The notes: generated from the letters alone by a model not told the origin. Positions 1-54,999 are shown, numbered from the stretch's first letter. The stretch is 64,000 nucleotides of DNA from Okamejei kenojei (GCA_035221665.1 CM069163.1:22692001-22756000); one strand, 5' to 3'. Numbers and translations are program-made.

Positions 1-15
1 TCCTGTTTTGTGTAG

Positions 16-270
16 AATATGAATCTGAAACTACGAGAAGCCGAGCAGCAGCGGCTACGGCAGAAGGAGTTGGAGCATCAGAGGCAAGCAGAAAGCCGAG
101 ATCGACTGCGCAAGTTGAATGCTATCCAGGCAGAAGTGTTACATCTGAATATGCAGATAGAGCCCTACTTGAAACAGAAGGACCTTGTGGGACTGGACCT
201 CTCGGAATACAGTAATCGTGGCAATCAACTTTGCAGCCTGGTGTCAGGAGTTATTAAGCTCACATCAGAG
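16..270 (+). CDS. GLE1: GLE1 internal coding exon (coiled-coil region; equivalent to human exon 6); gene starts upstream of the window
   Basis: tgtAG acceptor at 14-15, GT donor at 271; 255 nt, phase 0/0; NMNLKLREAEQQRLRQKELEHQRQAESRDRLRKLNAIQAEVLHLN...SEYSNRGNQLCSLVSGVIKLTSE. Confidence 0.93.
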
Positions 271-470
271 GTGTGTGTGTGGCATGAATAAGCGTGAAGT
301 GTAGATGGAGTTAATGGTGAGGTCTGGTCTGTGTGGACTGGGCTACATCCCCAACTCTGCACTTTCTTGCGGATTTGGGCAGAGCTGTTACCACTAAGAA
401 ACCTTGGGTGTGTGAGGAAATGTCATGGATGGAAAAAAGTAGAGTCGTCTGTGCCAGTGCAGACTATGAA

Positions 471-960
471 AATAAGCAAGTTCGGTATTCAGCCTGCGCA
501 TGCCCAGGTCATAGGTCACTCGCGATAAACATTCTCGACAGCTGTGATGCTGCATGGAAACAGACCTGCGTTTCATCCATAGTCAGGATAGTACCCGGGT
601 CTCCGGCACTGCAAGCACTGATGAATTGCCATTGGACCGTCCCCTTCCGAGTGTCCCATCCCTGTCTGGGGGTGGCCGAAGATGGCTGGGGTAACCCTGG
701 ACTGACGGGACATGGGCCCAGAGCAGTGACAGCCTAGGCTTACAGCCGGCGCCAAGTCCAGGGCTGTCGGTTAACCCTGCGGGACAGGCAGAGTTGAGAT
801 AGAGTTGGCGCTTCTTGCCCGCGCTGGCTGTAAACCTGGGCCGCCACTGCTCTGGGCAGGCAGGTCTGTTTCCATGCAGCTGCCGAGAATGTTTATCGTG
901 AGTGACCTTTTACAAATCCCATGATTCCTTGCATTTTTAAGAATACCGAACTCGCTTATT
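471..960. mobile_element. Non-autonomous inverted-repeat element (MITE-like), GC-rich core
   Basis: Outer IR AATAAGCAAGTTCGGTATTC (471-490) / GAATACCGAACTCGCTTATT (941-960), 19/20; inner IR 513-569 / 860-908 (~49 bp plus an 8-nt indel); no TSD seen. Confidence 0.75.
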
Positions 961-1037
961 GCCAAGAGCAGGAAAGGAAGCATATTACTTACATTGTGAA
1001 TGTCCATATTAAAAAAATACTAATTTGCTCTTTGTAG

Positions 1038-1251
1038 GGTGGCTTGCTACAACAAGAGGACATGCTGAATGCAGAGCGAGCCCTGCTGCAAATGAGAACG
1101 CTGATAGCCGCTATGCATGAGAAAATTGCTGCTGTAGCAGCAGATAAGAAGAGGATAAAAGAAGAAGAGGAGAAAGCACTTCAGAAAAAACAAGAAGTCA
1201 AAACTGAAATAGCACCACCAGCTCCTCAACAGAAGCCCACTCATAAAGAAG
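1038..1251 (+). CDS. GLE1: GLE1 coding exon (human exon 7 equivalent)
   Basis: tttgtAG acceptor, GTattc donor; 214 nt, phase 0/1; GGLLQQEDMLNAERALLQMRTLI...QQKPTHKE. Confidence 0.9.
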
Positions 1252-1858
1252 GTATTCTAGTGTTCTTATTTGTGAAAAATCTTTTTTTGGTCATTCATAT
1301 GGTGGCATTGCAGGGGTGATTTTGCAGAGAAATGCATGGAAATATTCCTAAGTGTTCCATGAACTGCTTTTAAAGCAAAGAATATTGTTCTTGTGACTGT
1401 TTTATCTGAGGTGGCAAATGCTCATTGGTAAGACGTTTGGAAGTCTTGATGAAACCCTTTCAATGCAAGGGAAGTAAGGAATGCACTCAGACGTTCAGAG
1501 ATAAATATTATGCTAAAAGATCTCTGTAAAATGGGTTTCTAAAACTTGGTTCCTCAGTATTTAAATTCAGCTGCCTCAAAGACATGCTGCATGTGAGGCA
1601 AGAACAATTAGTTTTTGGATTTGTCTCTTTTTTCCCCCATTGGAGATTGTTTTTGTGAAATGTGAAATTTAACCTGAAATGTGAAAAACATTCTCAGATC
1701 TTTGTCCCGCTCCGCTAAAATTTCCCTTTGTTGTGCACAGTCATTGACAAGAGTGACTGAATCTGTCTGGTAGTCACAGAAATCTGTGTCTTGCCATCTA
1801 GTAGCTATCAAACTTCTGAAAGGTCTTCCCATAAACTACGGTATAGTAAGGATCTTTT

Positions 1859-4800
1859 AATAGTAAGATTAAACGAGAACTTACCAGTTCAAAGTTTGAT
1901 CGTTATTTTATGAGGAGTAACGATGAGGGATTACGTGAAGAACCCCGCCTGGCGCTGGAAACGGCATACTTCAAAGCAGCGGCATGAAAAACACAGAACA
2001 CAAATAGCCGGAGTAAGATAGTAAGGCTCATCATAGATTTAGAACTACCAGATGATCATTTATTTTATGAGGGTGGGGAGTGGAGGGCACGTAATCCCTC
2101 ATCGTTACTCCTCATAAAATAACGATCAAACTTCGAACTGGTAAGTTCTCGTTTAATCTTACTATTTTACTTCGGAGTCACGTGAGTGACTACGTGAAGA
2201 GTGTGAAGCTTTCTGTGTTTTTCGTGTCGTAGAATTTATTCCATACGACAGTACGGCTCATTTAACACAATAACGAGCGAATAACACATTTTCCCCAAAC
2301 ATTGCCTCAAGTTATGTGATAAATTATTTCACATTATAAAAAATGAAAATAATGCCCTTTCCAATGAAAGGCAAGTTTATCACAAATACCAATTGATATA
2401 TATATTTTTATGGCATGACAAAGCAACAATTATAGAGAACCGAACATTGCGTGTCTAAATCTGACACCATGACTGGTTCCTTTTTACTTTAACAGTAATT
2501 TACAGCCTCCTGCGGCCTTGCATCTTTGCTCGAGTGGCTCATCCTGTGCCATTCCTGTGAATGTATTTTCCTCATTAACAGAGTGATTTTTCCACCTTTC
2601 AGTGTCTAGTTCCTACTGAATGTATCCAATTTTTAAACCATCTAGAAATACATTCCTCTATAACTATCAGTTTTTACTGAACCCAATGTGGTTTTTGTGT
2701 GTAATAAGCAGTCTCATTGCCACAGAGACTCTTACCTACTNNNNNNNNNNNNNNNNNNNNNNNNNNNNNNNNNNNNNNNNNNNNNNNNNNNNNNNNNNNN
2801 NNNNNNNNNNNNNNNNNNNNNNNNNNNNNNNNNNNNNNNNNNNNNNNNNNNNNNNNNNNNNNNNNNNNNNNNNNNNNNNCTTATAGTTTACCTTCGTTTC
2901 AGGTCTTCTTGGTGTGCTTTGTTTGGTAGATTCATAAACATATATGATAATGCAATTTCTATCCACATGCAATTATAACGTAACATTTGCAATGTTTGCA
3001 CTCTTATATTGATACTAAAGTTATCAGAATTATTATTTTCAATGTTCAAGTTTTTTGAATCATAGATAGAGTTAGAGTCCATTTCTTAAGGCATTTCAAG
3101 ATTATTTATCTCCTGCCTTTATATNNNNNNNNNNNNNNNNNNNNNNNNNNNNNNNNNNNNNNNNNNNNNNNNNNNNNNNNNNNNNNNNNNNNNNNNNNNN
3201 NNNNNNNNNNNNNNNNNNNNNNNNNNNNNNNNNNNNNNNNNNNNNNNNNNNNNNNNNNNNNNNNNNNNNNNNNNNNNNNNNNNNNNNNNNNNNNNNNNNN
3301 NNNNNNNNNNNNNNNNNNNNNNNNNNNNNNNNNNNNNNNNNNNATTCTGAGCCCTATTATTGGCTCTATCAATTAGATACTTAGAAAATGCAATCCACAA
3401 GGAATTCACATATATCCAATATGATAAAATAACTATACTGTATATACAGACCTCCAATTTCTTATAACAAAATATTGTTTTTTAGACTTATTTCTGCAAA
3501 TTGCAGGTATAACACTTCTTTATACATAATTATTTTATTGATATATTGTTATATTGGTTAACATTCATAGACTTCTTTGACCATCAGCTGTTGTGATGGT
3601 CTGGTCAACCTGTAGATAGTAAAATTCATATTTCCATGTCATGGAGGTTTTTTTGTACAACAATAAATTACTGCAGGGTTTCTCAAACCTGGAGATCCCA
3701 GTGGGTGCAGCAGCATCCAAAGAGCGAAGGGAGACAGGCAACGACCTGGGTCGAGACCCCTTTTTTGACTTCAATAAATTGCTGCCACTATGAATCATCA
3801 CTAGCAGTTCAAATCACACAATATTTATGAAACCATAAAGGACCCGTATTAGGCCACCAAAATGCCTCTCGCAGTGTCCTGCTACATTTTCATCAGACAC
3901 TGCCCTATAAACAAAAATGAGGAACACAAAGAAATCTTTTCCTCATGTAATTGGGAGAAAAGCATCCACCTTCACTGTTCTTGGTTTACCCACAAGAAAT
4001 ATTCAAAAGATCGGTGATTTAATCTGTATGCAATCAGATTAATCGTAAGTAATCCATATTGATGACAATATGTTTTTTCTCCCAAATTTGTTATCTTCCG
4101 ATACCATTGTCTCTTCCTTAGAGATAAACAGGTGGACTAAACTTTAAAAATATGCCACATCTGTTTACTTAGATAATCCCATGATTGTTATTTGACTTAT
4201 CTTGTGACCCACAAGAAACATTTGAAAGATCAGTGATTTAATCTGTATACAACCAGATTAATCGCAAGTAATGCAAAATAATGACAATATGTTTTTCTCC
4301 CAAATTTGACCATTGTTAACATATGCCACAGCCGTGGTATTGTTCATCTTGATACGACATGGACAGTTCCATAATAAAACAATCGATCTTTTTAATCCAT
4401 AACTCCTTATACTTCAACAATTAATTACGAATGTTTGGAAAATTTCTTAGGACAAACCATTTATGTTCGCCTGGTATTATTGTCTGCAGTCCGAACAAGA
4501 GACATATCAATTATTGTTATAAGAATAGATAATATTCTTATCTTTACACAAACATTCACAGAAGCTGTACATCATCTGTAACACTTGCTTCAGTTTGCAA
4601 CAGCTGTTAATCTTATAGTTGAAGCAGCTTATGAACCTTTTTTACATTACTTTAATAATGATAACGTATCATTTGATATTTTGCATAAGCCTCTTCACAA
4701 GGCATACATATTCTTATAAGCTTCTGTATTCCTTCTTTTGGAACTTTATTTATTTTTTACCTAATCCTAATGGAGGGACAAAGTATGTCGACAACAATTA

Positions 4801-6749
4801 GACATATTTGTATCATGGAACAATTTTCCCCCTCTCTTTATGGTGCTTGAATTACTTCTGAATTCAGAATAGTAATTTATAAGTATTTTATTAATGCCTG
4901 AGCATATGCTTTATGTAATGGGTCAGGTCCTTACCTTCCACCAGGTTTGTAATGGCAGGCACTAATTTGCAGCTGCTCTTATCTCTTCCAATTTAAATGT
5001 AATCGAGATAACCCATGACCATGACCTCATTAGTGCAAGTGCTGATCTTTTATCAGTATAATTGTTCCTTCAGTGTTCGGTTTAACAGCCTTGAACTGAT
5101 TGATTGTTTGGACAATGTTTTAACTTGCACAGCTTGACCCACTTTCATTAATTTCAAGCACCTGAATATTGATTAACACTTTGTTAATCACAACAGTTTT
5201 TCCATGTTCTAGATGTTTCCATTTTCTTACACTGAGGTAATTTTATAATATACATGTACGTACCCTTCTTATTAAATTACTTTTGAGTGCAAACCTGAAA
5301 TCAATTTTTAAAAGTTTCCTTATACAGGTGAACCAATCCTTCCTTGGATATATTGGTTAATAATCATAATACACCTGTAATCCCCCATAATTGGAGATTT
5401 CATGAACTTATTTTGTAACCAGGTGTTTGCACCTTTTCAACGTACTTCAAGCCTTCTTTCCCCCAATTATATAGGTTTAGATAAGGCTATGTTTGGATTA
5501 TACCACTTCTGCCTTTGTTTTGATCCATTATCAAATCTTTCATTGGATCATAGTTTTTTCACCGCAAGTTAAAAAAGATCTTTGCCTTTGTTTTGATCCA
5601 TTATCAAAATTTTTTCATTGGATCATAGTTTTCTCCCCAAAGTTTAAAGATCAGTAGTCTTTTGTAATTAATATCTTTGATTTATCATAAGGCAGGTTTA
5701 TTCTATAATAATCAGGAGTTTAATATCCTGATTTGTATTGATCTGCGAACCTATAGTGCAGATTTGGTAAATTATATATATTTCTTCCTATTGAGCTCCA
5801 CAACTGATGGCAATTTATTTTATTTTGAAAGTATTACTTATTTGCACCATTTTGAAATACTTTTAAATTGTATTTCTTATATCTCATATTATTTGAGACA
5901 TGGATATTTATAAACGGATTTACCGTTGATATTTTAATAAAACATAAAAGTTTTATCATATTCTTGAAGTTGGTGAGATACCATATAATTAATGTTGGCA
6001 GCTAGGTTTTCTTCCATAGCCTCACCACTTCTTTTAGATATAGCAAAATCTTTTGCTATCTCAGGCACATCTGGCCTCACTTTTTTTATTTGTGGTTTGC
6101 ATTCATAATTCACATCACCACTTGCAGGGTCTGTCTTTTGCAGCCCTGATCCACTTGGAATTATATCCAAAGAGACTTCCTCCACCCTAATCCAGGGTTC
6201 AATTCTCAATTTGGCACATAGCCATATTTTGTATATTTAAGCCCCTCAGGACCCTTGTGACCCTTGTCTCTTTTTATATTTTGTAGTATATTCTCCATAT
6301 CACGATTTTTATTAACTTTTTTAAAGTACAGCCTTTCTGTCTTTTAAAATTCCCTGCCAAAAGATTGTGGAGCATTTTTACCTCTCTATCGTAATTTTAA
6401 CGGTACCAGTATCGGAACCGGCCCCGTAATTAATCTCTCGTCCCGATCACTGGGTATTCCCCTGGGACGTTCTTTTCAAAAACTCCGTTATTTTAACAGA
6501 GTATATCTGTTCAATTTAAACTTTTAGTTTGTTTTTAAAATCCTTTAAAATCCTGGTTTCCACCAGGCACGGAGTTTTCCAGTCCTTAAAAAAAAATTTT
6601 TTAACTGCCTTACCTGCCGGTTCCGAACCTACCGCTGTCGAGGAGCTGTCTGTGCAGCTCCTGCTTCTGCCATCAGCGTCGACGTAATGCCGTTTCCAGC
6701 GCCAGGCGGGGTTCTTCACGTAGTCACTCACGTGACTCCGAAGTAAAAT
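1859..6749 (-). mobile_element. DIRS1-type tyrosine-recombinase retrotransposon, coding-degenerate
   Basis: 36-bp perfect ITRs (1932-1967 / 6687-6722); ICR 2088-2200 complementary to both termini; AAT trinucleotide at both ends; minus-strand relics of gag (~5700-6200), RT (VMGYLDY, 4999-5019) and YR (ISRW...GLDT...HSVN...PLE...KAAG, ~2500-2650). Confidence 0.93.
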
Positions 6750-6856
6750 CTATTATTGTGGACATTTGATTTTTTTGCCTTTAGAACTCTAATGCTGCAA
6801 TGCTGTAAAACTATATTCTGTACTCTGGTATTTTCTTTGCTCTACCTGATGTATGA

Positions 6857-8235
6857 GGGCAGGCTGGCCAAGAATATAAAGAAGGATAATAAAAGCTTAT
6901 TTAGGTATGTTAAGAGAAAAATATACGTTAAGAGAAAAACATTAAGAGGTTCTGTCCTCAGTAAGGAAGACACAAACATTTTCCCAGATGTACTAGAGGA
7001 CAGAGGATCTAGGGACACAGGAACTGAAAGAAATTTGCATTAGGCGAGAAATAGTATTGGGTAGACAGATGGGACTGGAGGCTGATAAATCCCCAGGGAA
7101 TTTGGATGAAGGAGAGCCAGTGGATGTAATGTATCTGGACTTTCAAAAAGCCTTTGATAAGGTCCCACACAGGAGATGTGGGTAAAATGAGAGCAAATGG
7201 TATTGGGGATATGGTATTTACATGGATAGAGAATTAGTTGGCAGACAGGAGTAGGAATAAACGGGTCCCTGTCAGAATGGCAGGCAGTGGCAAGTGGAGT
7301 GCCACCAGACTTGGTGCTGGGGCTGCAACTATTTACAATATATATTAATGATTTAGATGATGGAATTAAAAGTAACGCTAGTAAATTTGCAGATGACACA
7401 AAGCTGGGTGGCAGTGTGAACTGCGAAGAGGATGCTAGGAAGCTGCAGGGTGACTTGGACAGGTTGAGTGAGTGGGCAGATGCATAGCAGATGCAGTATA
7501 ATGTAGATAAATGTGAGGCTTCCACTTTGGCGGCAAGAACAAGGGGGCAGATTATTATTAGTGTCAGATTAAGAAAAAGGGAAGTGCAATGAGACCTGAG
7601 TGCCCTTGTACACTAGTCACTGAAAGTAAACATACAGGTACAGCAGGCAGTGAAGAAAGCATGTTGGCCTTCATAACGAGAGGATTTAAGTATAGGAGTA
7701 AAGAGGTCCTTCTGTAGTTGTACAGGGTGAGACCACATCTGGAATATTGTGTGCAGTTATAGTCTCCTAATTTGAGGAAGGACATCCTTGCTATTGAGGC
7801 AGTGCAGCGTAGGTTCACGAGGAAAGTTTGGAAAGACTGGCCTTATATTCACTGGAATTTAGAAGGATGAGAGGGGATCTTATAGAAACTTATAAAATTA
7901 TAAAAGGACTGGGCAAGCAAGATGAAGGAAAAATGTTCCCAATGTTGGCGGTGTTCAGAACTAGGGGCCACAGTCTAAGAATAAAGGGAAGGCCATTTAA
8001 AACTGAGATGAGAAAAAACGTTTTCAACCAGAGAGTTGTGGAATTCTCGGCCATAGAAGGCAGCGGAGGCCAATTCACTGGATGAATTTAAAAGAGTTGG
8101 ATGTAAACCTAGGGGCTAACGGAATCAAGGGATATGGGAAGAAGGCAGGCACGGGTTACTAATTGTGGATGATCAGCTATGCTCGTAATGACTCAAAGGG
8201 CCAAATGACCTCCTCCTGCACCTATTTTCTATGTT
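6857..8235 (+). mobile_element. CR1-type LINE, 5'-truncated and degenerate (RT C-terminal half plus 3' UTR)
   Basis: YLDFQKAFDKVPH, SGVPPDLVLGLQLFTIYINDLD, KFADDTKLGG, RPHLEYCVQ, LEFRRMRGDLIETYKI; ends cctcctgcacctattttctatgtt. Confidence 0.92.
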
Positions 8236-8350
8236 ATATTTAAGTAATTTATATTTGATTTATTAGAACTGTACAAACATTAAGATTTGTGGAAACAAAC
8301 AATTAATTAAAATCTAATTTAATTTGCATAATCTTTTTATTTATTTGTAG

Positions 8351-8463
8351 GGCTACAATTAAAGGCAGATTCAAGCACTTTGCAATGGTACCACCGGTTG
8401 CAGGATATCTGTAATCAATGTGCAGCATCCATTAATGATCTTAACAACAGCAAGGATAGTAAG
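8351..8463 (+). CDS. GLE1: GLE1 coding exon (exon 8 equivalent)
   Basis: ttgtAG/GTaaaa; 113 nt, frame-compatible with neighbours; GLQLKADSSTLQWYHRLQDICNQCAASINDLNNSKDSK. Confidence 0.93.
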
Positions 8464-9320
8464 GTAAAATAATATTAAATGCTTTTGAAGTAATCTGTAA
8501 TAATTTTACTTCCAGGCAATTTCTGCACTAACGTTGTCAACATAGTTTAGTCCCTTTTGTAAACTTTTCAATGGAAATCTCTCCAACTGGCCTCATTTAG
8601 ACCTCATGGAGGGAAGTGAGCTTCAGATTTCATTTGCATTTTGAAGAGAAAGCCAATCGTTACAGTTGGGTGATAGTTGATAGCAATTTTAACCCTGGAA
8701 GGTACAATTGATTCTCCTTTCTACAGTGGGTATGCGTTTTGTAAGGCTATAAATCATTGCATTGTGGCATACATGATTCTCGACTTTTTATGTAACTGAA
8801 CAAGGAATTATCACCAAAATAATTTCAGCAAAGTATCCTATGGTTACAATCTGTCTGTAATCTAGCTCTCGACATAGTGTGTGCCATGTACGAAGTGCAA
8901 TCTAGTTATTTAACTTGACTCGACTGACAAAAATCTAACTTTAGAAAAAAAGCAGCAAGTAACTGGGAGTATTTGTGGGGTTTCATCCGAGTCGTTTTGA
9001 CTGAGAAATGTGTGGCAAATCCTTCATTATTGCTGCATCTAAATCCTGAAATCCCCATCTAACCATATTGTAGAATCCGATGATTAGGAGAGTATGGTTC
9101 ATGAAGGTGGCTTACCTCTACATTCTCAAGGATAATTATGAATCCTTGGTCTTGCTAATGAAAGCCCCAACCTGAAAAATTAATTAAAAAATACAAAATC
9201 TATTTAACTTGGCTGGAAAATTAATACAGGTAGGCAATGTTACACAATATCAATATAAGTAAATAATATTTCCCATTTAAGTTATAATACACTCATAAAA
9301 GTTTGTACATGTGTCTCTAG

Positions 9321-11780: not shown

Positions 11781-12407
11781 TTTATAGTAAAGCTTCTCAA
11801 AGTAATGAGAAATAAAGATAATGTTCAGAAGTGAGATTGCTATTCACTCTACCAGTAGAGTTTTTGTTTCAGTTTGAATTAAAATAACTATTTTTTTATT
11901 TCTCTCATTCTGCCCGTCGGAAACCGGCACCAGTGCGTCACTAATGTTTTCAATGATATAATAATTCTCATTGTTAATACTTCATTTNNNNNNNNNNNNN
12001 NNNNNNNNNNNNNNNNNNNNNNNNNNNNNNNNNNNNNNNNNNNNNNNNNNNNNNNNNNNNNNNNNNNNNNNNNNNNNNNNNNNNNNNNNNNNNNNNNNNN
12101 NNNNNNNNNNNNNNNNNNNNNNNNNNNNNNNNNNNTCCTTTGAAGCTTAAACCAAATGCCTATTTTTCTCTTGTTTTGAACAATCTCATCATCTGCAAAA
12201 TGGAGGCTTCCCTATGTATCTATAAAACATTAATTGCATTAAAAACTCCCAGAGGGATAATGAGAGCTCATTTTAACTAAGTGCTATAGAGAAGAGCAAA
12301 TACTGGTCACAGAGCTATACAGGTCCAGCTTGTCTATGCTGAATACGATGTGTACCTGAAATAGGGCTGATATCTCTCCAATCACTATCCGTGTACCTGT
12401 CCATATG

Positions 12408-12738: not shown

Positions 12739-13718
12739 AAGATGGCCACAAATTGCCAGAGTAACTCGGCGGGAGAGGCAGTATCTCTGGAGAGAAGGAA
12801 TGGGTGACGTTTTGGGTTGAGACCCTTCTTGAGACAGGTCTTCTTCGAGACCGTCACGACCTGAAAAGTCACGTATTCTTTATCTCCAGAGATGCTGCCT
12901 GTCATGCTGAGTTACTCCAGCATTTTGTGTCTATCTTCGATTTAAACCAGCATCTGCAGTTCCAGAGCTGCCAAGTAGTACGGATTTTCCGTGTTTTGTA
13001 CGGAAATGCCATCAGTATATGGATTTGCTTTGTAAAATACGGATTTTTTTAAAATCAGCCCGTCTTCCTGTTTCATCTTGCTGCTTAAAAATGCACGGAT
13101 ATAAAAAGTCATACTGTACCTCTAAAAATTATAGCAGATTAAATCTCTTAGTATTTTAAATTTCAAGATCTGGATAATTATTTTTGTAAGCTTTGATCTG
13201 CCTGTCCGGCTCGAGGTTTAAACAGCGATGTCAGTTTAACACGTGGGAATTTAAACGAACAGTGCTATGGGTTCTAAAAATAGCCCTCCCAGCTGGGGCT
13301 TTACACATAGCGCTGTGGCCACAATGCTATGGGTCACAGACTGTTAGGGGAGGGAGGGAATAAGAGGGAGGGAGAAAAAAAAAAGGAAGAAGGTGGGAGG
13401 GGGAGAGGGAGGCTTCCTAAATGGCTTCTACATCTGGTGCTAAAAGCAGGAAGCAGCCATTCAAACATCAGTATACAAAGAGATGGTAATAAATGCATTG
13501 TCAAGTAAGGTGCATAGAGGAATTGTCAATTGGTATCAAAGTTATGCTTTCTTGTACTCTTACATGGGTATAACCACACATTAAAAAAACACTATTTTCA
13601 GCAAAATGGCACTGCGTAAAAATACTGATTTCTTCAGCGAAATACTGATTTTCAGGTACTAGAATACTGAAATTCTCTGACAAAACCTGGCAGCTCTGCA
13701 ATCCCTTCCTGCACAGAT
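12739..13718. mobile_element. Inverted Penelope-like terminal repeat pair interrupted by a nested DNA transposon
   Basis: Inverted gagtaactc..gcagtatctctggagagaaggaatgggtgacgttt..gacccttc arms; TSD-like CATTGATCCT (12729-12738) / CATTGAACCT (13719-13728). Confidence 0.75.
12963..13698. mobile_element. hAT/Tip100-like MITE
   Basis: 11-bp TIRs CAGAGCTGCCA / TGGCAGCTCTG; clustered subterminal AATACGGA/AATACTGA repeats; splits a Penelope-repeat sequence. Confidence 0.8.
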
Positions 13719-21119: not shown

Positions 21120-22100
21120 GTAGATTTATCGATAGCAAGGAAGATTGTATAAAGCTAAAACAGGATACAGATTCAATGGAAGGTTGGGCGGAGCATTGAT
21201 AACTGGAATTTAATCCTGATAAGTGTATGGTGATGCCTTGTGTGACACTAAGGAATTTTGATGAACAGAGGGATCTTGGCTTTCAAGTTCATAGTTTCCT
21301 AAAAATGGCACACAAGTAGATAGAATGATGAAGAAGGCTCCTAGCATGTCTGCCATCATAGGTCAGGGCATAAAAATTGGGATGTTATGGGGCATCTGTA
21401 AAAACACTGGTTCGTGTATTTGGAGTTGGACACAAAATGCTGGAGTAACTCAGCGGGACAGGCGGCATCTCTGGAGAGAAGGAATGACGATCAGTCTGAA
21501 GAAAGCTCTTGACCTGAAATGTCAACCATTCCTTCTCTCCATAGATGCTGCCTGTCCCGCTGAGTTACTCCAGCATTTTGAGTGTGTCTTTGATTTAAAC
21601 CAGCATCTTCAGTTCATTCCTACACAGTGTATTGGAGTATTGTGTGCCCTTCTAGTTTTCAGACCATAGGAGGATATGTTTGCACTGAAGTTAATGCAGA
21701 GGGGGGTAACTAGGGTGTTGCCCTGATTGGAGGACTTTAGGTATGGGGAGAAATTGGCCAGGCTGGGTTAGTTTCTCTCGGTGATCTTGGAGGTATTTGA
21801 AAATATAAGGGGCCAAGAGTAGGTAGATCGTCTGAATCTTTTTCTCGCATAGTATGGTAATAAGTTTAAGGAGATAGGAAGGATTTTTAACCAAATGGCT
21901 ATTTTGTAAAATTGGTGCCAGAAAAATTATGGAATCGGATACGATGACGAGACATTTAGATAGGCACTTGCACAGAAATAAGTAAGGCATAGAAGAATAT
22001 GGAGCGAGTATGGGTAAATTGAATTTGTGTGAACAGGCAAAATGGTTGGCATGGAGTGGTGTGCCAAAAGGCTTGCTTCTGTGCTGGACAATGCTATGAC
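21120..22100 (+). mobile_element. Degenerate CR1 LINE with a nested inverted Penelope repeat (21428-21626)
   Basis: Relics of W..EFNPDKC, RDLG.QVH, LEYCV and a CR1 3' UTR; interrupted at a duplicated gtgtatt(t)ggagt. Confidence 0.75.
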
Positions 22101-22298: not shown

Positions 22299-23491
22299 AA
22301 TAATTAACTTAAGTGGGATTGTCGGATTAATTGAATATTTATACTTAATTTGTCAGTTTTTAAAGCTTTGTGTTGCTCTTGATGTTCAAAATTTTGTAGT
22401 CCTCTAAACTATAGTAATTGACAAGAGGGCAAATGGTGTTTGAGAAGCTGTGTATTTTAATTGATTGTTTTGTGATTTGGGGTTTATTATGTAACATGAA
22501 ACGATCATGTGACTATTATAGTATGACGTAATCAGCATTCACTGTCGTAACAGGTTGCATCAAGTATTTACGGATCGGTACAGTGGATGTTTCTTGAGAG
22601 TATTAATAAGTTGTGGGAAGCCTTTATAATATGCTGTATACTGACTTTGTAAAAAATATTTGTGGTATCTTATGCATTGGACACGCAATCTAATGATTGA
22701 TGTGAATGGTGAAGTAACTTGCCTAGGATTTGGTGAATTATTTCCTTTTGAAGGCATTTTGAATGTTCTTTTTAAATATTGTTTTGCTAACTACTTGGTT
22801 AACTGTGTACCTTGAATAGTTGAGTAGCCTGCTATACTTCAAACTTACTATCTTCCACCAACCACATTCTCCCCTTGAAGTAAAATTGATTATATTGAGC
22901 AACGACTACTATAATCTGTCACAATGAGATGTACTCTGGTAATCTGCCTGATGGGAAACCAGTTAGATGTGGGGTTAGGAAATTTTCTGCTTATCCCATT
23001 ACTATATTTTCTACACTTTATAAGATGTATTTTGCCACTTCCCTGGGAATAGTTTGGGACAATCATGCATATAAATAAATGAAGTATTTAAGGCATTTCT
23101 AGAAAATTATAAAGACCATTGCATCTATCTGCTTTGTGACTTCGTGGTCCATGTAAGCTGCCCCCTGTTGTGTTTTCATTTTTTCTCTTATTAACTGATA
23201 ATTCTATTTATTTCATCATTATGCTCACTGAGTAGAACAGCTTTGTGCAGAAATTTCTATTTGCATAGAATTTCCAACACCTCGGATGGCTTTTTGGCCC
23301 ATCTAGTCCAAATCTGCATGAGTGGATATAATAGGCTCTTCCTACCCTGCCCCATCAGCAAAATGTTCTTTCTTCATTGAATTTATTGGTGGCTCTCTTG
23401 TATTTATGAACCCCAGTTTTGGATATCTTCCCTACAAATGAAGTTGTTTCTTTCTCCTTTAAATAGCCATTTATAATTTTAAAGATCTCTA

Positions 23492-23570
23492 GGGTAGACA
23501 CAAAATGCTGGAGTAACTCAGTGGGACAGGCAGCATCTCTGGAGGGAAGAATTGAGACCCTTCTTCAGAC
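23492..23570 (-). mobile_element. Short Penelope-derived insertion (hammerhead partly deleted)
   Basis: gacacaaaatgctggagtaactcag..gagacccttcttcagac; perfect 14-bp TSD TTTAAAGATCTCTA (23478-23491 / 23571-23584). Confidence 0.85.
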
Positions 23571-27885: not shown

Positions 27886-28000
27886 GAAAGACAAGAAACT
27901 GCAGATGCTGGAATCTTGAGAAAAACACAAAGTGCTGGAGGAACTCTGCAGATGAGGCAGCATCTGGGGAGGTAACTTTTCAGGCTGGGACTATTCATTA
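27886..28000 (-). mobile_element. Older Penelope-derived short insertion
   Basis: aactgcagatgctggaatcttgag..cacaaagtgctggaggaactc..gcagcatctg; TCCTAGACTG repeated on both sides. Confidence 0.65.
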
Positions 28001-28214: not shown

Positions 28215-29000
28215 ATCATAAGACAGAGCAGAATTGGGCCATTCAATCCATCAAATGTGCTTTTATTCTGAAGCTGTGCCCTCTGGTCCTAGATTCTTCT
28301 ACTACTAAAAACATCGCATTTGCCTTCCTTAATACCGACTCAACATGCAAATTAAAGTTTTGGGAATCCTGCACTTTCAAGTTCCTTTATTACTCCAATT
28401 TCTGAATCCTTTCTCCGTTTAGAAAATGGCCTACTCCTTTATTCCTTCTACCAAAGTGCCCACTCTCTCAAATTGTCAAAGTCCTTCTGCAGCCTCACTG
28501 TTTCCTCAACACTACTTGCCCTCCACTTATCTTTGTATCATCCCATGCAATTCCAACATCCAGATCATTCATATAGAGTGTGAGAGGTAGTGGACCCAGC
28601 ACCGACCCTTGCAGAACATTGATTGTAGGAAGGAACTGCAGATGATGGCTTAAACAGAAGATAGACACAAAAAGCTGGAGTAACTCAGCGGGACAGGCAG
28701 CATCTCTGGAGAGTAGGAATGGGTGATGTTTCGGGTCGAGACCCTTCTTCAGCCATTTGTCACTGGTCCCCAACCAGAAAAGACCTCCTTTCATCACACT
28801 CCTTGCCATCTGCAGTCAGCTAATCTTCCTTCCATGCTAATACCTTGCCTCGAATACCATGGCCTCCAATCTTGTTTAGCAGCCTCACGGACTGCGGCTG
28901 GTCAAAGGTCTTCTGAAAATCAAAGTAAATAAAATCCATAGAATCTCCTTTGTCTATGCTGCTTGTTACTTCCTCAAAGAACTCCAAGATTTGTCAGGCA
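28215..29000 (-). mobile_element. Degenerate CR1 LINE with a nested Penelope repeat (28625-28753)
   Basis: Minus strand QGSVLGPLPLTLYMNDLD and DDTKISGG; the nested repeat carries a hammerhead core with one substitution (GAAACATC). Confidence 0.75.
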
Positions 29001-29599: not shown

Positions 29600-30007
29600 T
29601 CGAAGAGATGATTTCAGTAAATGTTCATTCGGAATGGTGCGTCGTTGCCGATGCAACGCCGCAGAGGGTATGCGGAATTTACCGAGGATGTGTTCGGAGC
29701 GAATCTAGCTGTTGATCTTTCTGCTAAACACCCCAACTTTCAAAAACATTCTTGACCTTGAGAGGACTGGAGCGGTGCAGTGTTTGGGCGACGGCGGAGC
29801 TCGCCGAAGCAGGCGCCTCACCCCGATGACGGAAAGTGCCGAAGTAGCTGCCGCGCCCGCTTGACGGAATTGGCCGAAGGTGCTCGGGTTTGTTCGTTTC
29901 CTTGCTGCAGAACAGTGACATCATCATCGCGGTCGGTAAAAGAGGCCGGAGCGAGCTCGGAGGGCGACAGTGCAGCGAGCGAGCGAGCGGGCGACGGAAG
30001 GGTTTTG
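29600..30007 (+). promoter_or_regulatory. SPTAN1: CpG island promoter and probable non-coding exon 1 of SPTAN1
   Basis: Only CpG-dense non-TE stretch between the genes; CCAAT (~29507), TGACGGAA (CRE-half/ETS-like) motifs and TGACATCA; ends at a TTTG/GTATGT donor (GT at 30008); the first coding exon has only 3 nt of 5' UTR, so an upstream exon is required. Confidence 0.7.
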
Positions 30008-30091
30008 GTATGTTTTACATTTATCTGGAAATATGGTTTAAAGTCAGTAACTTATCCATTTCAATGCTCCGTTTTTTATTCGACCTGCTTA

Positions 30092-30098
30092 ATATATA

Positions 30099-30137
<39 letters not shown>
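30092..30137. repeat. (TA)n microsatellite
   Basis: atatatacctatatatatatatatatatatatatatatttatatat. Confidence 0.9.
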
Positions 30138-32303
30138 TCATATTTTAAGTGTGGTTGTTGAGAAATCATTTGAATAAACTATTGAGGTAAAACATCAAAT
30201 TTCTGTTTGATTTAGCATTTTGTTTTGACTGATATGGGAGAAGGGTTTGCAGTCAACGTGGTTATCGGGCGTTGTCTCCGGTCGAAGGAGCGAGGAATTT
30301 TAATCTATACATTTGAACTGTAATTATAGAACTGAATAATTGAACTGAATCTGACATCTGGAGTATTTTTTCAAAAATATCCAGACAAAATATGTAAAAT
30401 ATTTCTGTTCCCCGCGGCTGCGCATTTTCAGTTTTTTTCCTTCTATGTGCTGTTGCATACAATTGTACGGCATGTTTAAGATAATGTTAAACATGGCTTT
30501 TCTCTCCCCTGGTTTTTGGTGTTTTCAATCACAATGAGCTTTAAAATGGCTGCGGGGATGGGTTTCCTGCGGTTTCGACCGCAGCAAGGTCAGAGAACAT
30601 ATCTAGAATATAAATATCCATAGATGAGAGGAATCGGTCCAGAGGTTGTCTTGGGGAGAGGACTCGTCTTCATTGTGGCAATGTGGAATTCTTCCTCCAG
30701 GGAAGGAAGGTCAGAGGAGAGCGGTGGGTGGTAGAAGGAAGAAGAAAACATAAATATATTCTCTCAAATAGGTTGGCAGATGATCTTGGATTCAATGAAT
30801 GGGGAGTACATAATTTGATAGAAATAAATGGATTTGGCGAATGGCCCGACAGGAAGAGAAAATGTATTATAATAGCTAAATAATTGTTCGGTATTCATAA
30901 AATCCATGACATGAAACTATTTCTGGAAATCAAGTGGGGGGGGGGGGGGGGGAGAGATTTAAAATACTTTATTGCAACAAAATGGACCTTAAAATAAGCC
31001 CACATTAATTAACAGAACAGTTTGAAAACTGGTTCATTTAGATTCCCAATAACAGATGTCAGGGTGATTCCTCTAGCAACAGTTGAGGAATGCAATGTTT
31101 TTTTCCCCAAGAATTAACTATATCCAGGAATATGTTACATTGAATCCAAATCAAAATGTGATGTTGAAATGAATTTTATGGCCATAAAATTATGGAAGGC
31201 TGAGTGGTACTGGAAACAGGAGTTGTGTGAATTTTATCATTTCTGTTCCAGGACCGTTTCATTTGTTTAATGCAAAGGTTTAATTGGTTGGTTAACATGA
31301 TTTTAACAATTGTTTTCTTTTCGCTAATTTCATGGAAACATGAAATTAAAGAAATCTGGCCTCCCCAAAGACACATTGTTAATATACTTTTTAAAAAAAT
31401 AGACATACCAGAATTTATTCTATTCTGCTGGATTTTTGATGATTTAAGCAAATTGTCCACGCTTATTTTTTGAAACTGTACTTTATCACAATTATGACAT
31501 TAATCTGTCATGTATATTATGAATTTATTTGGTGGAATGCAAGTGTATAAAGCCATGATCCAATTATGTGTAATCTAGTGTGAAACAGTGACCCATTCTG
31601 TAGGAATAATAGATTGATGGGCCATTCGGACTAAATTTGGAAGATGTTTGCAAGGGATTCCTAGCTCTTTCCTGGAGCACAATTTATTAAAAATCCTCTT
31701 GTGTGTTTTGCAGTGCTGCTGATGTGTAATCTAAATTTAATTATCTCAAACGTATACAGGGAGGGGAAAATATTTTAATCGGGGCAATAGGTTGAAATTG
31801 CATAATGGTGAAAAGTCCAATTGGTGGTGTGCAGGATATCTTTCAGGTGATGACAGTAATTAAAGCTGTGCATCATGTTATTATTGGTATTTTGTTCAAA
31901 TGTTTATGTATCATATTTATAAACGTATATACATATAAACATACTGCATAGTTAAAGAAGATGGTTTTTTTTGGGCTATTGCAGAATAAATGTTTTCTGT
32001 ATTAGGATTTGACACGGATTTAACTACATAAATAAAATACTGATTCTACGGTTAGATCATTTATGGGGGGGGGGGAGAGGGGAGAGGAATAGTACCAGTC
32101 TGATACACAATGTTTTTAATTGCCACATTTTTGTAACAGGATGTCTGTGCACTAGAATAACAGCTCAAAGATTACATAAAGTTGAAGATGTATGCAATTG
32201 GAAGCTAGTAGAAAATTTTGCAGTGAATGTGTTTTGTATACTGCATCAAAAACAAGGTCAGGGTGGAGTTAGTTATTGCTTTACCAGTTGTGTTGGAATG
32301 CAA

Positions 32304-32405
32304 GATAGACACAAAACGCTGGAGTAGCTCAGCGGGACAGGCAGCATCTCTGGAGAGAAGGAATGGATGACGTTTCAGGTCGAGACCCTTCTTCAGATTC
32401 TTCGA
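32304..32405 (-). mobile_element. Short Penelope-derived insertion with minimal hammerhead core (32369-32396)
   Basis: 11-bp TSD TTGGAATGCAA (32293-32303 / 32406-32416); minus strand CUGAAGA-A-GGGUCUCGACCU-GAAACGUC. Confidence 0.85.
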
Positions 32406-35400: not shown

Positions 35401-36108
35401 TGTGTTTTTTTTTAAGTTATGACATAAATATTTGTGACTGCCAAATACAATTGGGACCCTGAGAATCTTGGTGTTTGGAACTTCAACCATAAATTCCTTT
35501 TTGCACTGTGAGTTATTATGTATGATTGTATGCAGTCAAAGTGCAACATTAAAAGCCTTTCTTTTAATTTCTTTCAAATGTTTCCCTCTTCTCTAATTAC
35601 AGTATAACTCCATGACTTTCTAGACTGGGGGATTTTCTGAAGCATTGAATGTTATCCCCAATAATGCCAATGGACTCTTAATTCGCTTCTTTAAATGTTA
35701 CATAGTATATTACTTTTTCCAATGAACCCAGTAAGTTTAAAGGGAGTATAGGAAGTGGGGACCTGGTATGTTTCAAGGGAACACAGGAAACATGACCTGG
35801 TGATTCAGATGCCGATTCATCAGAATTTCCAAACAGTCAAATAAAGATTATCAGAATTTTATTGCATTGGGTCTGTGATTTAGATAGTAGCTGTTGAATT
35901 TTACACACTCCTTCAGAATGTGTACCGTTTGTGGGGTGATAGCAGAGAGGGCAGGGGAGACTTGTCATGAACATTTGCAGCTCTGTACATATCAGCTATA
36001 GGAATGTTGGAGAGATCCCTACATTTTCAGCTTTTTGAATTGCTGACTGAGAATATATTTTAAATTACCAGCGAATATTGTTCCAGTGTTTGAACAACTG
36101 CTTTTGTT

Positions 36109-36703
36109 TATAGGAGCAGGGAGGTTCTACTTCAGTTGTATAGGGTCTTGGTGAGACCACACCTGGAGTATTGCGTACAGTTCTGGTCTCCAAATCTGAG
36201 GAAGGATATTATTGCCATAGAGGGAGTGCAGAGAAGGTTCACCAGACTGATTCCTGGGATGTCAGGACTGTCTTATGAAGAAAGACTGGATAGACTCGGT
36301 TTATACTCTCTAGAATTTAGGAGATTGAGAGGGGATCTTATAGAAACTTACAAAATTCTTAAGGGGTTGGACAGGCTAGATGCAGGAAGATTGTTCCCGA
36401 TGTTGGGGAGGTCCAGGACAAGGGGTCACAGCTTAAGGATAAGGGGGAAATCCTTTAAGACTTTTTTCACACACAGAGTGGTGAGTCTCTGGAACTCTCT
36501 GCCACAGGGGGTAGTTGAGGCCAGTTCATTGGCTATATTTAAGAGGGAGTTAGATGTGGCCCCTGTGGCTAAGGGGATCAGGGGGTATGTAGAGAAGGCA
36601 GGTACAGGATACTGAGTTGAATGATCAGCCATGATCATATTGAATGGCGGTGTAGGCTCGAAGGGCCGAATGGCCTCCTTCTGCACCTAATTTCTATGTT
36701 TCT
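36109..36703 (+). mobile_element. Young 5'-truncated CR1 LINE (open ORF2 C-terminus plus 3' UTR)
   Basis: LYRVLVRPHLEYCVQFWSPNLRKDIIAIEGVQRRFTRLIPGM..LEFRRLRGDLIETYKILKG..WNSLP; tail ttctgcacctaatttctatgtttc. Confidence 0.93.
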
Positions 36704-37628: not shown

Positions 37629-38630
37629 TGATCACTTGCTTGTGTGCTAAGGGCAATTCACAATTAATCTACGACCCTTTCCATTTTTTGGGATGTGGAA
37701 GCAAAACAGAGAACTCAGAGGATACCCATAAAATCATAGAGAGAATGTGCAAACTTAACACAGATGCACAGGTGGTCAAAATAGAACCTGGGTTCCTGGA
37801 ACTGTGCTAGCTGCACCACTGGTGATGGTGGTAATACAAAGCCTGGTGTCACTCGCGTTTGTGACAGTGTTGCAAAACATTGGTGACCTGGTGAGAATTT
37901 TCTTTTTTGCGTAGAATGAATACTGAGTTATTGAAAGTGACCCTTGTTTCCATGGAAGTTGATTATTGTCTCGGTGGGTTGGGGGGGGGGGGGGCGGGGT
38001 ATGGAGGTAGAAGGTGAGCACAGTGGAGAACTAGTGGTTGTTGTACTGTGTGAGGCCGACCCATTTTTATGCATTTGTGAAGTAGGTTACTGATATTGGC
38101 GATTAGAATGATCATGTGTACTCAATTGAGATCCAAAGGCCGAAACAGGGTCTGATTCTGTGCTGCATATTATGTTGTGGTAATTCACCAGATTTTGTTT
38201 GTCTAGTAACCTCGATATTTTGCAGCTGATGGATGGTTTATCATTCTCTTGGTGAGCTGTAGCAGTATTGAGTAGTAGATGTGGTGGTATTGACATTGTG
38301 GTAGTGTTCTGCAGGATGAATACACGGATCCTTCCATCAGTGGCTCTCTTTGCTTGAGATGTTGTAAAGTGTTCGTTCTCTATTTTGGAGTTTCTTCTTG
38401 GCTTTTCGTCAGGTGAGATCTTGAGTGTTCGGGTGCTGGATTTTTATGGTGATGAATTCCCTAAATGTTTTATCAATCATCCATACATTAGGTTACAGTA
38501 TTAGAAAATGTATACTATGAAGAGTTTGAAATCCATCAATAGTTCTGACAATGCCATGATTTAAAGCTACTCACAAAACATTCCATATTGAATAATTTAT
38601 TGTAACTTGAAGAAGCTTGCTCTGGTTCTA

Positions 38631-38728
38631 GGGTTACACAAAAAGCTGGAGAAACTCAGCGGGTGCAGCAGCATCTAAGGAGCGAAGGAGATAGGCGACG
38701 TTTCGGGTCGAGACCCTTCTTCAGACTC
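38631..38728 (-). mobile_element. Short Penelope-derived insertion
   Basis: Perfect 13-bp TSD TGCTCTGGTTCTA (38618-38630 / 38729-38741). Confidence 0.88.
38695..38726 (-). ncRNA. Minimal type I hammerhead ribozyme motif (Penelope type)
   Basis: GU-CUGAAGA-A-GGGU(CUCG)ACCC-GAAA-CG-UC-GC: intact core, stem II, palindromic ACGU stem III. Confidence 0.75.
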
Positions 38729-38897
38729 TGCTCTGGTTCTATATGTTTTAAAGTCAATGACATGGGGGGGGGGGGATGCTTTGATTACAGGGATGGAGTT
38801 GACTATTAGTTTAAATGTTTGAGATGGCTTTTTAATGTTGTCTTCACCTATTTCTAAAATCATTTTTTAATATGTATTTTTATGCCTGTAACAGAAA

Positions 38898-46335: not shown

Positions 46336-47149
46336 GTAAAAGTGCCAGTGAGAAGGCCAAATAGTTACACTGGGACCTCAAGAAAGTGAAAAGGGAATTT
46401 GCTTTCTATTTAGCCAGTATTAGTATTCTAATACAGGACATATCTTGCAAACCTTTTATTGAAGTAACCATAAATAGGGCTTTTGATTTCAAAATCTATG
46501 TTTCATGTTGACTTGACAAAGTGACTTAAATTTTGCCTTGAAGCAATGAATTAGTTTCTCTCATATGATTAACAGAGCCGCACTGGCTTGGGTATGTTTA
46601 CTGCTGAAACCTATTTGTCCCCTAAACCTGAACATTTCAAAGTGCTCCAAGCTAGCCTCCCATCTTCCAGTCTGTGACTCATTCAAAGTTTTGTTGCTTT
46701 TAGCCAGGTCTGCATCGTCACACTATTTTGTTTTTTCTATGTTGCCCAATATCAAGGTTTGTTCTCGTGTTTTCTCCTCTTTACTCAAATCTTGCCCTGA
46801 TTTCTTGTCATTTTGTGAGCTACAATTCTGGTCTCCTTTTATTCCCACTCCTATTGTTAGCAGCTGCCCTCTAGCTGTGGAGCTCCTTCACCTGGAACAC
46901 ATCCCTAAGTCCCTGCCCCTCATATTCTTATCTTTTCAGTTTGCCTTGTTCTTTGTCTTCATATTTCCTTCCTCGCTTAGAATTATCTGGCCTTTTCTTT
47001 GAATGCCAGTCTTGACTATGGGATTAAGCAGAATAGCTACAGTGCTTGAAGTGTTTAATTATCTGGTTTTGTAGTAAAGTGTTCTGTGATGGTTGGAGAA
47101 TTGTTCATGAAAGTGACCATCGTTTGAGACAATGTTACATTTTTCCTAG

Positions 47150-47285
47150 GCTGCAACGTTTCCTAGCAGATTTCCGTGACCTGACAAGCTGGGTGACTGA
47201 AATGAAGGCGCTCATCAGTGCTGACGAATTGGCGAATGACGTGGCTGGAGCAGAGGCATTGCTTGATAGACATCAGGAGCATAAG
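47150..47285 (+). CDS. SPTAN1: SPTAN1 coding exon
   Basis: cctAG/GTgatt; 136 nt; [45 protein letters not shown]. Confidence 0.96.
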
Positions 47286-47837
47286 GTGATTCTAGTCTTA
47301 TATCATTGTAAATGTGTAGGCTCACTTGTTAAGGGATGTGAAAAGTCCACTAAATGCATAGTCAAAATACTATGAAATATTTACCGAAAAAAATTACTGT
47401 AAGCAGGAAATTGTTGAGGAAGCACATATAATCATACTAATTGCCATCTCTACTAATTCACACAACATAAACATGCTTCTGCTGTATTCAGATACTCGTT
47501 TTTTGACGTGAATGTGATGCCTGATTTTTAATGGTTATATACTTGTTTATTCAAGTGTGAAACAGTCACGAATGGAGCTACTCTCAACTGGTATTATTCA
47601 TTAAGCTTGAAGATGAGCAGGCTGTTTCCAACTTTGATATATCTAGATCAATCAGGTTTTGTTTGATTATCGGATTATTTATTCACAAAATGCAGATGGA
47701 GAAATTCTGCATTACTAAAGACATCGCTGCCTAATTACAAATGAATATTATTGTAATAAACGAATAAAGCAGATTATAAAGATTTTAAAGACCTGAACAG
47801 AAATTAATGTAATATTTACATATCTGATATTTTCCAG

Positions 47838-47939
47838 GGTGAAATTGATGCTCATGAAGACAGTTTCAAGACAACAGATGAAGCGGGACAAGCCCTGCTT
47901 GCCGGTGAGCACTACGCATCTGATGAGGTCCGAGAGAAG
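47838..47939 (+). CDS. SPTAN1: SPTAN1 coding exon
   Basis: tccAG/GTacga; 102 nt; GEIDAHEDSFKTTDEAGQALLAGEHYASDEVREK. Confidence 0.96.
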
Positions 47940-48549
47940 GTACGATACTCCCGCATCAAAGCTGTCAATATTTTTTGCTGATAAGGAAATTGCAATGTTG
48001 TTCTTTTTGGAATTACATGAATCTTAATGATAATTATTCATTAGTTTTGTCAGCTGGTGCAATCCTTGGAAATTGTTCTCTTTTCAGAATAAGTGAAACC
48101 AACTAATTCCTGGGAATGCTTTTGTTTTACATTACCTTCCTGTGTGAAAATTCACAAGGAGAGCAATTTTCCTTTGATTGCGTATATTAACCATGTAATT
48201 TAGTAGAAGCTGAAGCGATTATGGTGACTAAATACAACATGAAAATTCTACTATGTTACCCTTCATGCAAATATTTGTTGATGAATTTGGACCCACATGG
48301 TCTTTTAGACCAGATAGACACAAAACATATATGGAATTGGTTATTATCGATTTTTTTTATACCCATATTTTACATGTTGAAGTACTCCCTCCATCTCCTG
48401 TACAACTAGGTGTAGATTGGATCTGTATACTGTCGTGATTGATTTCTTGCCGATTTGTTGTATCTTCACAAAGGAAAAAGCTCTTGCTTCTTCCTTTCTT
48501 TCTAATGATTCACTGTGATTCATATCTCAATTCTAACATCGAATCAAAG

Positions 48550-49620: not shown

Positions 49621-49796
49621 TCCTCCAAGCCTCAACATCTTGTCAACCAGTTGGGGGTTTTACCTTTCTGCATAACTGAAAATTGGATTTTTGGATATCT
49701 AAAATGTGTCTATTTCTGGTAATTCAAATAATCATAAGTGTATATAATTTTTCTGTTTGAATCTAATGATTATAAATGTCTTGATTTATTTCTTAG

Positions 49797-51364: not shown

Positions 51365-51454
51365 GTAGGATTGGCAAAATTCTTCCAGTTCGTGATATTT
51401 TTGTTATGTGTTTTGATCTTCACTAGTTGTAACTATGCCATTTTTTCCAATCAG

Positions 51455-54985: not shown

Positions 54986-54999
54986 GTACAGACATTTTA

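What the first reader, a model, noticed from the sequence alone, without database searches (positions are those of the whole stretch)
1859..6749. DIRS1 element with pristine cis-signals but long-dead ORFs: a probable non-autonomous family
Seen: the ITRs are 36/36 identical. The ICR matches one terminus at 78/79 (2088-2166 vs 1859-1937) and the other at 37/37 (2164-2200 vs 6713-6749). In contrast, gag, RT and YR are barely recognisable, AT-rich, frameshifted and internally deleted: RT YLDD reads YLDY followed by a stop, YR HSxR reads HSVN, and AAGW reads AAGG. Known: DIRS1 termini are regenerated from the ICR during replication, so their identity dates the insertion. Inference: the element inserted recently although its coding sequence decayed long before, so it is mobilised in trans, like a LARD among LTR elements.
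Basis: partly seen in the sequence, partly recalled or inferred. Interest (0 to 1): 0.72.

Follow-up and report, generated by a model that had tools for sequence, protein, structure and literature searches.

The report
Helper-dependent DIRS1 retrotransposon with fossil genes
A nearly full-length jumping gene in a vertebrate intron has freshly matched ends but long-ruined genes, so it was most likely copied with enzymes borrowed from an intact relative; this kind of hitch-hiker is expected but little described for this family.

Summary
Confirmed. Window 1859-6749 (minus strand) is a 4.9-kb DIRS1-like retrotransposon with ATT ends, a 3-nt circular junction and cis-repeat pairs that differ at 1 of 146 positions. 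Its gag/pol/YR genes are fossils that no profile search detects. Internal clocks show that the damage is older than the last copying. A frame-breaking 128-nt insertion beside the RNase H motif differs from its source at 15 of 117 positions, and three interior repeat pairs differ at 21 of 195 (Fisher p 7e-5 against the ends). Each end is contiguous with dead coding sequence, so the N-gaps do not explain the contrast. Mobilisation in trans is therefore well supported. CpG-rich ends, an imperfect hairpin between the ICR and the adjacent spacer, and an excess of perfect short hairpins across the interior (post hoc test) favour a repeatedly copied non-autonomous lineage over a single revival. No second copy or helper could be found: no eukaryotic DNA collection was searchable, so 'family' is untested. 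Non-autonomous tyrosine-recombinase elements are known (TOC1, SIRE); my searches found no ITR/ICR-type case. New variant of a known kind.

The parts
1859..6749 (-). Whole DIRS1-like element, 4891 nt including 358 N; begins and ends with ATT; removing it leaves a single ATT
6687..6749 (-). Left terminus (63 nt): 6713-6749 complementary to the left ICR; 6687-6722 conserved ITR core
   Evidence: 37/37 and 36/36
6390..6686 (-). CpG-rich, structured 5' leader (probable promoter/packaging region; function inferred)
   Evidence: 17 CpG vs 13.8 expected in 6380-6686, p 4e-5 against the interior; fold z -4.4 for 6330-6749; some interior windows fold as well
5830..6240 (-). gag fossil (assignment by position and recalled motifs); longest open stretch 5934-6236; folds into short hairpins
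   Evidence: z -6.4; no homologue found
5510..5648 (-). 73-nt tandem duplication; 5 substitutions in 64 aligned positions plus 2 gaps
4800..5400 (-). Reverse transcriptase fossil; KMET 5214-5225, YLDY 4999-5010
   Evidence: YL/IDD motif in PMC3266345; KMET recalled
4100..4520 (-). RNase H fossil; DAS-like motif from 4517, NNTTAVAYV 4318-4344
   Evidence: spacing 493 nt; 7 of 8 residues match the SpDIRS1 and TcDIRS1 rows of PMC2685390 Additional file 6 (compared by eye)
4191..4318 (-). 128-nt frame-breaking insertion right after the RNase H motif, bounded by a 7-nt direct repeat; 4192-4308 is a copy of 3971-4090
   Evidence: 15 substitutions in 117 aligned positions
3640..4090 (-). Methyltransferase-domain fossil (end of pol)
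   Evidence: by eye; DLFAS/FPP/PxW landmarks; not detected by Pfam or PHROGs
3661..3785 (+). Nested 97-nt host repeat (3675-3771) with a 14-bp target duplication (13/14); 111 nt, in frame
   Evidence: 18 of 95 positions differ from the copy at 38630-38727
2741..3343 (.). Two assembly gaps (2741-2879, 3125-3343) around a 245-nt island, in the most AT-rich part
2480..2740 (-). Tyrosine recombinase C-terminal fossil; HSVN 2574-2585, AAGG 2505-2516
   Evidence: HSTR motif in PMC3266345; AAGW recalled
2201..2290 (-). CpG-rich hairpins before the ICR; 2211-2229 pairs with 1980-1998 (17/19)
2088..2200 (-). ICR: left part 2164-2200, right part 2088-2166, overlapping in the 3-nt circular junction 2164-2166
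1980..2087 (-). Spacer that is a degenerate complement of the ICR and pre-ICR (2096-2229); blocks of 13/13, 16/18 across the circular junction, and 17/19
   Evidence: local score 60 vs max 47 in 5000 resamples and 46 in 1836 host windows; z -5.2 as RNA, -6.0 as DNA
1859..1967 (-). Right terminus (109 nt): ITR core 1932-1967, divergent ITR about 1905-1931, right extension about 1859-1904
1252..8350 (+). Host intron (GT..AG) that holds the element in antisense; gene read as GLE1
   Evidence: splice sites; Pfam GLE1 hits in downstream exons, E 6.6e-34 and 9.3e-09; the two flanking exons were not themselves matched to GLE1

Best explanation
A non-autonomous DIRS1-like retrotransposon that has been copied repeatedly without coding. 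Shown: complete, self-matching termini and ICR; clean ATT integration; dead ORFs; interior lesions far older than the ends. Established for Dictyostelium DIRS-1: termini are restored from the ICR, and RT works in trans. Inferred: a source copy is transcribed from its CpG-rich left end; an intact DIRS supplies Gag, RT/RNase H and recombinase; the single-stranded cDNA rebuilds both ends on its own ICR, circularises at ATT and recombines with a genomic ATT. Each round resets the end-to-ICR identity, while the interior keeps every stop, frameshift and nested insertion gathered during genomic residence. Selection now acts on cis-sequence and probably on strand folding (ICR-spacer hairpin, short hairpins), not on protein.
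For: Cis pairs 1/146 (95% CI 0.02-3.8%) vs interior pairs 21/195 (6.8-16%), p 7e-5; the RNase H insertion alone 15/117, p 3e-5. That insertion is 128 nt and so frame-breaking from birth. CpG observed/expected is 46/35.6 at the ends vs 32/100 inside (p 1e-9), including the leader and ICR, which are not rebuilt from other repeats; only 2 of 282 host windows reach 1.1. Perfect hairpins (stem at least 7, loop up to 20): 18 in the de-duplicated interior vs 5.0 shuffled and 6.35 host-adjusted, p 1e-4; all 16 host blocks have 9 or fewer. ICR-spacer complementarity. ICR essential, RT in trans (PMC7192593).
Against: No second copy in the window, and no relative or helper found anywhere (weak negatives). 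The hairpin test was post hoc and is weaker at other settings (p 0.015 for stem 7/loop 12; 0.007 for stem 8/loop 12). Differences between the duplicate copies do not significantly avoid stems (6/66 vs 9/51; 2/33 vs 3/31). The interior may have been CpG-poor from the start. A gapped assembly that resolves both ends suggests copies are few or diverged. The tandem duplication and the nested insert need not have been lethal.
Confidence: 0.7

Rival explanations
1. One-off revival: an old relic that decayed in place was transcribed once and copied by a helper, which rebuilt the ends; no lineage or family exists.
For: The replication model makes ends match the ICR after a single round; interior CpG depletion equals host background (0.32 vs 0.36); no sister copy seen.
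Against: The ICR and leader of a relic should have lost CpGs with the interior, but have o/e 1.2-1.9; perfect hairpins should have decayed but are in excess.
Confidence: 0.12
2. Graft: about 370 nt at the 5' end and 430 nt at the 3' end come from a young autonomous family and were joined to an old interior by template switching or recombination; still mobilised in trans.
For: Sharp CpG boundaries near 6390 and 2280.
Against: Needs two junctions that keep gene order and normal spacings (HSVN to ICR 385 nt, spacer 120 nt, within published ranges); does not explain the interior hairpin excess.
Confidence: 0.1
3. Assembly or polishing artefact: ends of a young copy placed on an old interior.
For: Two N-gaps inside the element.
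Against: The left end runs without a gap through gag, RT, RNase H and MT fossils (3344-6749); the right end through the YR fossil (1859-2740); both run on into unique intron and exon sequence.
Confidence: 0.04
4. Old insertion whose ends were kept matched in place by gene conversion or by selection on a structure in the host pre-mRNA.
For: The right ICR and right terminus are 150 nt apart and form a 79-bp stem.
Against: Two other pairs lie 4.5-4.7 kb apart and are also perfect, while the divergent ITR parts stay different from each other and each matches its own ICR.
Confidence: 0.04

Closest known systems
DIRS1-like retrotransposons (ITR/ICR type; PMC3266345)
   Same: ITRs with conserved and divergent parts, right extension, two ICRs overlapping in a 3-nt junction, ATT ends, 4.9 kb, RT-RH-MT then YR motif order and spacing.
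   Different: No open frame; motifs altered; ends about 16-fold less diverged than interior repeat pairs. Repeat sizes (core ITR 36, extension about 46, ICR 37/79) resemble 4 mollusc elements (core 31-36, extension 48-49), not the 7 vertebrate elements (core 102-148) among the 28 in Table 3.
TOC1 of Chlamydomonas
   Same: Described as an active nonautonomous DIRS retrotransposon (10.1101/2022.06.16.496473).
   Different: TOC1 has split direct repeats of the PAT-like type (recalled, from no call), not ITR plus ICR; algal host.
SIRE, derived from VIPER (trypanosomes)
   Same: Non-autonomous derivative of a tyrosine-recombinase retroelement (PMC6681497).
   Different: About 0.4 kb, reduced to repeats; that paper leaves its mobility open.
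LARDs (plants)
   Same: Large, no protein products, assumed trans-complemented, structured RNA (PMC7215508).
   Different: LTR/integrase class; here the interior is a colinear fossil of the element's own genes and integration is by recombinase at a trinucleotide.

Membership tests
DIRS1-like superfamily | Inverted terminal repeats with conserved and divergent parts | tested here: met
   36/36 core, partly matching outer part
DIRS1-like superfamily | Two ICRs complementary to the termini, overlapping in a 3-nt circular junction | tested here: met
   37/37, 78/79, overlap 2164-2166
DIRS1-like superfamily | NTT trinucleotide at both ends, no longer target duplication; right extension | tested here: met
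   ATT at both ends, flanks differ beyond it; extension about 46 nt
DIRS1-like superfamily | gag, RT-RH-MT and YR homology in order | tested here: inconclusive
   No profile or sequence hit (a CR1 RT control reached only E 0.082). Motif order and spacing fit published tables by eye; gag rests on recall
Autonomous DIRS1 element | Open gag, pol and YR frames with catalytic motifs | tested here: not met
Non-autonomous family | Loss of coding older than the last transposition | tested here: met
   21/195 vs 1/146; 15/117 for the frame-breaking insertion
Non-autonomous family | Several dispersed copies sharing the lesions | not testable with these tools
   No eukaryotic DNA collection; none in the window
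Non-autonomous family | An autonomous partner with related termini | not testable with these tools
   Protein searches found nothing
LARD | LTR retrotransposon derivative with direct LTRs | tested here: not met
   Termini are inverted with an ICR; it works like a LARD but is not one
PAT-like / Ngaro / VIPER | Split direct repeats | tested here: not met
   No such direct repeats in 1-9000

The most novel reading that the evidence does not exclude
A long-lived, satellite-like DIRS lineage in which former coding DNA, freed from protein constraint, is being reshaped into a hairpin-rich scaffold by selection or template switching on the single-stranded replication intermediate. The spacer acts as a fold-back switch that masks the ICR until the ends are rebuilt. 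Such elements would be invisible to domain-based DIRS screens, and their invertebrate-style termini would mark a DIRS lineage not among the vertebrate elements tabulated in PMC3266345.
Probability: 0.3. Interest if true: 0.72.

Novelty: new variant of a known kind. Interest (0 to 1): 0.54.

Why it matters
If true, it is natural evidence in a vertebrate that the DIRS replication model (ends rebuilt from the ICR, proteins acting in trans), tested so far in Dictyostelium, operates over long times. What such an element keeps while its genes rot maps the cis-requirements of DIRS replication, which are poorly known: no primer is known (PMC7192593). The ICR-spacer hairpin is a concrete candidate that can be deleted in the existing assay. 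It also means domain-based surveys undercount DIRS. The surprise is moderate, because non-autonomous derivatives exist in most transposon classes.

Tried and rejected
Homologue searches that found nothing: long frame-3 region (4500 candidates, none at E 1); gag stretch; RNase H piece (4 candidates, none at E 10); phmmer of a 623-aa MT-YR frame against 1.84 billion representatives (0 at E 0.001); exact look-up, 0 of 7 ORFs; PDB; Pfam on 3 frames and on 36 pieces (nothing relevant; the CR1 control reached only E 0.082, so these scans are insensitive); PHROGs on 7 pieces. Prokaryotic genomes were searched for host contamination: 0 confirmed of 449 stretches and 0 matches. The protein atlas gave no result, so that check is open. 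Rfam showed nothing above gathering scores in 1-9000 and no hammerhead in a sister copy of the nested repeat, so the recalled Penelope/hammerhead identity of that repeat is unconfirmed. Stop-codon depletion on the sense strand (190 vs 233, z about -3.6) only just exceeds the host range (-3.2 to 1.1 in 36 blocks) and was not used. Stem-versus-loop bias in the duplicates was not significant. The multiple alignment misplaced the nested copy; the pairwise value was used. Folding z-scores do not single out the 5' leader, because interior windows at 5504 and 5864 score lower (25 shuffles). The bacterial promoter scan is irrelevant. One-step hypermutation was rejected because the lesions include indels, duplications and a nested insertion, and the duplicate differences are 8 transitions and 7 transversions. 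PMC12477816 and PMC8498967 (passages) and PMC3701649 (abstract) held nothing on this question.

Full report
Observation. The element lies on the minus strand from 6749 to 1859, in the intron 1252-8350 of a gene whose downstream exons match Pfam GLE1; spectrin-repeat exons follow later in the window. The three cis pairs are 78/79, 37/37 and 36/36, and the one mismatch is a CpG transition. The two ICR halves overlap in three bases, both ends read ATT, and the flanks differ beyond ATT, so the empty site is a single ATT. This is the architecture defined in PMC3266345 (passages, section 10 and Additional file 3 seen; its PPT could not be read and its ZIP and two PDFs were not opened, and these may bear on terminal structure). 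The repeat sizes resemble 4 mollusc elements of the 28 in its Table 3 rather than the 7 vertebrate ones. That is a hint about lineage, not a test.

The interior. No frame is open beyond chance: 59, 63 and 68 stops in about 1012 codons, longest stretch 100 aa, reached by 10.6% of 500 resamples. No search recognised a domain, and these scans are insensitive to such decay, since a CR1 control scored only E 0.082. The DIRS identity of the interior therefore rests on motifs and distances. NNTTAVAY matches 7 of 8 residues of two rows of the alignment in PMC2685390 Additional file 6 (both parts seen; passages). YLDY to the DAS-like motif is 493 nt against 476-492 in the 18 animal elements I tabulated from 28 (left out: 7 fungal and amoebozoan, 2 hemichordate, 1 cnidarian). 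YLDY to HSVN is 2186 nt after removing two insertions, against 2023-2140. The pol-YR span is thus close to full length; the main loss is upstream of YLDY (position 1740 against at least 2058). The gag, KMET and AAGW assignments are recalled.

Which is older, the damage or the insertion? If the element had inserted intact and decayed in place, any later duplication inside it would be younger than the terminal pairs and no more diverged. The opposite is seen. A 128-nt insertion sits directly behind the RNase H motif, is bounded by a 7-nt repeat, breaks the frame, and copies a downstream MT segment; copy and source differ at 15 of 117 positions. A 73-nt tandem duplication differs at 5 of 64, and the target duplication of a nested 97-nt host repeat at 1 of 14. 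Pooled, that is 21 of 195 against 1 of 146 non-overlapping cis positions (p 7e-5; the first alone p 3e-5). The nested repeat also differs at 18 of 95 positions from its nearest copy in the window. Only the first lesion was certainly disabling from birth: the nested insert is in frame, and the tandem duplication may lie between genes. The N-gaps cannot produce the contrast, because each end is contiguous with dead coding sequence and with unique host sequence.

Mechanism. In Dictyostelium the transcript lacks most of the termini, the ICR is essential, the cDNA is single-stranded, and RT acts in trans (PMC7192593, passages and Introduction seen). The last copying of this element must have used another element's proteins. 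Self-matching ends alone do not prove a lineage, since one round would make them. Three observations favour repeated copying under selection. First, both ends keep CpG (46 observed, 35.6 expected) while the interior has lost it (32 against 100; p 1e-9); this includes the leader and the ICR, which are not rebuilt from other repeats, and only 2 of 282 host windows reach 1.1. Second, the spacer between ICR and right ITR is a block-wise complement of the ICR (13/13, 16/18 over the circular junction, 17/19), scoring above all 5000 resamples and all 1836 host windows and folding at z -5.2 and -6.0. The four mismatches in the two long blocks would be wobble pairs on the cDNA strand, too few to weigh. 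Whether intact DIRS elements have this hairpin I could not test; a search for it listed 3 papers, and the one read mentions only a short 3' hairpin. Third, perfect short hairpins are in excess across the interior: 18 against 5.0 shuffled and 6.35 host-adjusted (p 1e-4), above all 16 host blocks; 10 against 4.4 (p 0.015) and 6 against 1.65 (p 0.007) at stricter settings. This test was prompted by the fold and is post hoc.

Against. No second copy exists in the window, none was found elsewhere, and no eukaryotic DNA collection was available; the metagenome and viral contig collections stayed unchecked. The duplicates' differences do not significantly avoid stems. A gapped assembly that resolves both ends suggests that near-identical copies are not very numerous. 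Age: 1 in 146 corresponds to about 5 million generations (0.1-27 million) at 7e-10 per generation (PMC10587355, passages), so only the relative age is firm.

Known systems and novelty. TOC1 is called an active nonautonomous DIRS retrotransposon (10.1101/2022.06.16.496473, passages); SIRE is a short non-autonomous VIPER derivative of uncertain mobility (PMC6681497, passages); LARDs are the LTR-class analogue (PMC7215508, passages). PMC3266345 has no occurrence of 'non-autonomous', and the Xenopus DIRS preprint none of 'autonomous' as a word start (10.1101/2021.08.05.455354, passages; its published version lists one 'nonautonomous', not read). Searches showed no ITR/ICR-type non-autonomous family in the listings, but I read only some of the listed papers, and Repbase, Dfam and most subscription journals were out of reach. 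Verdict: a DIRS1-like element by its cis-structure, not autonomous, almost surely mobilised in trans (about 0.9), probably from a long-lived non-autonomous lineage (0.7). New variant of a known kind; interest 0.54.

Noticed in passing
window 471-960: Long imperfect palindrome (nested inverted arms of 20-37 nt, fold z -10.8) in the preceding intron; looks like a MITE or foldback element.
   Followed up: partly
window 6850-8235, 36094-36700, 60025-60570: Decayed CR1-like LINE 3' portions, 66-71% identical to each other; the first starts about 100 nt from the element's left end.
   Followed up: partly
window 12739-12960, 21424-21620, 23484-23560, 27893-27975, 28624-28755, 32302-32400, 38627-38729, 58092-58168: Short dispersed repeat family, two copies arranged as inverted pairs; several carry a CTGAAGA...GAAAC-like core on one strand that recalls Penelope-associated minimal hammerheads (recalled; Rfam gave no hammerhead hit). 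The copy nested in the DIRS element belongs to it.
   Followed up: partly
window 29600-30200: The only host CpG island in the window, followed by an AT microsatellite; probable promoter of the spectrin gene.
   Followed up: no
window 47037-59555: Spectrin-repeat exons (Pfam E 1e-8 and 2e-17); the GLE1-SPTAN1 neighbourhood is recalled as conserved in vertebrates.
   Followed up: partly
window 3568-3798 (minus strand): A 77-aa ATG frame reads through the nested repeat, whose insertion is 111 nt and in frame; probably chance.
   Followed up: partly
window 2064, 2157, 2240 (minus strand): AATAAA/ATTAAA hexamers near the 3' end; the one at 2064 lies just after the ICR and could mark a transcript end before the right ITR.
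   Followed up: no
window 11988-12135: A third assembly gap (148 N) outside the element.
   Followed up: no
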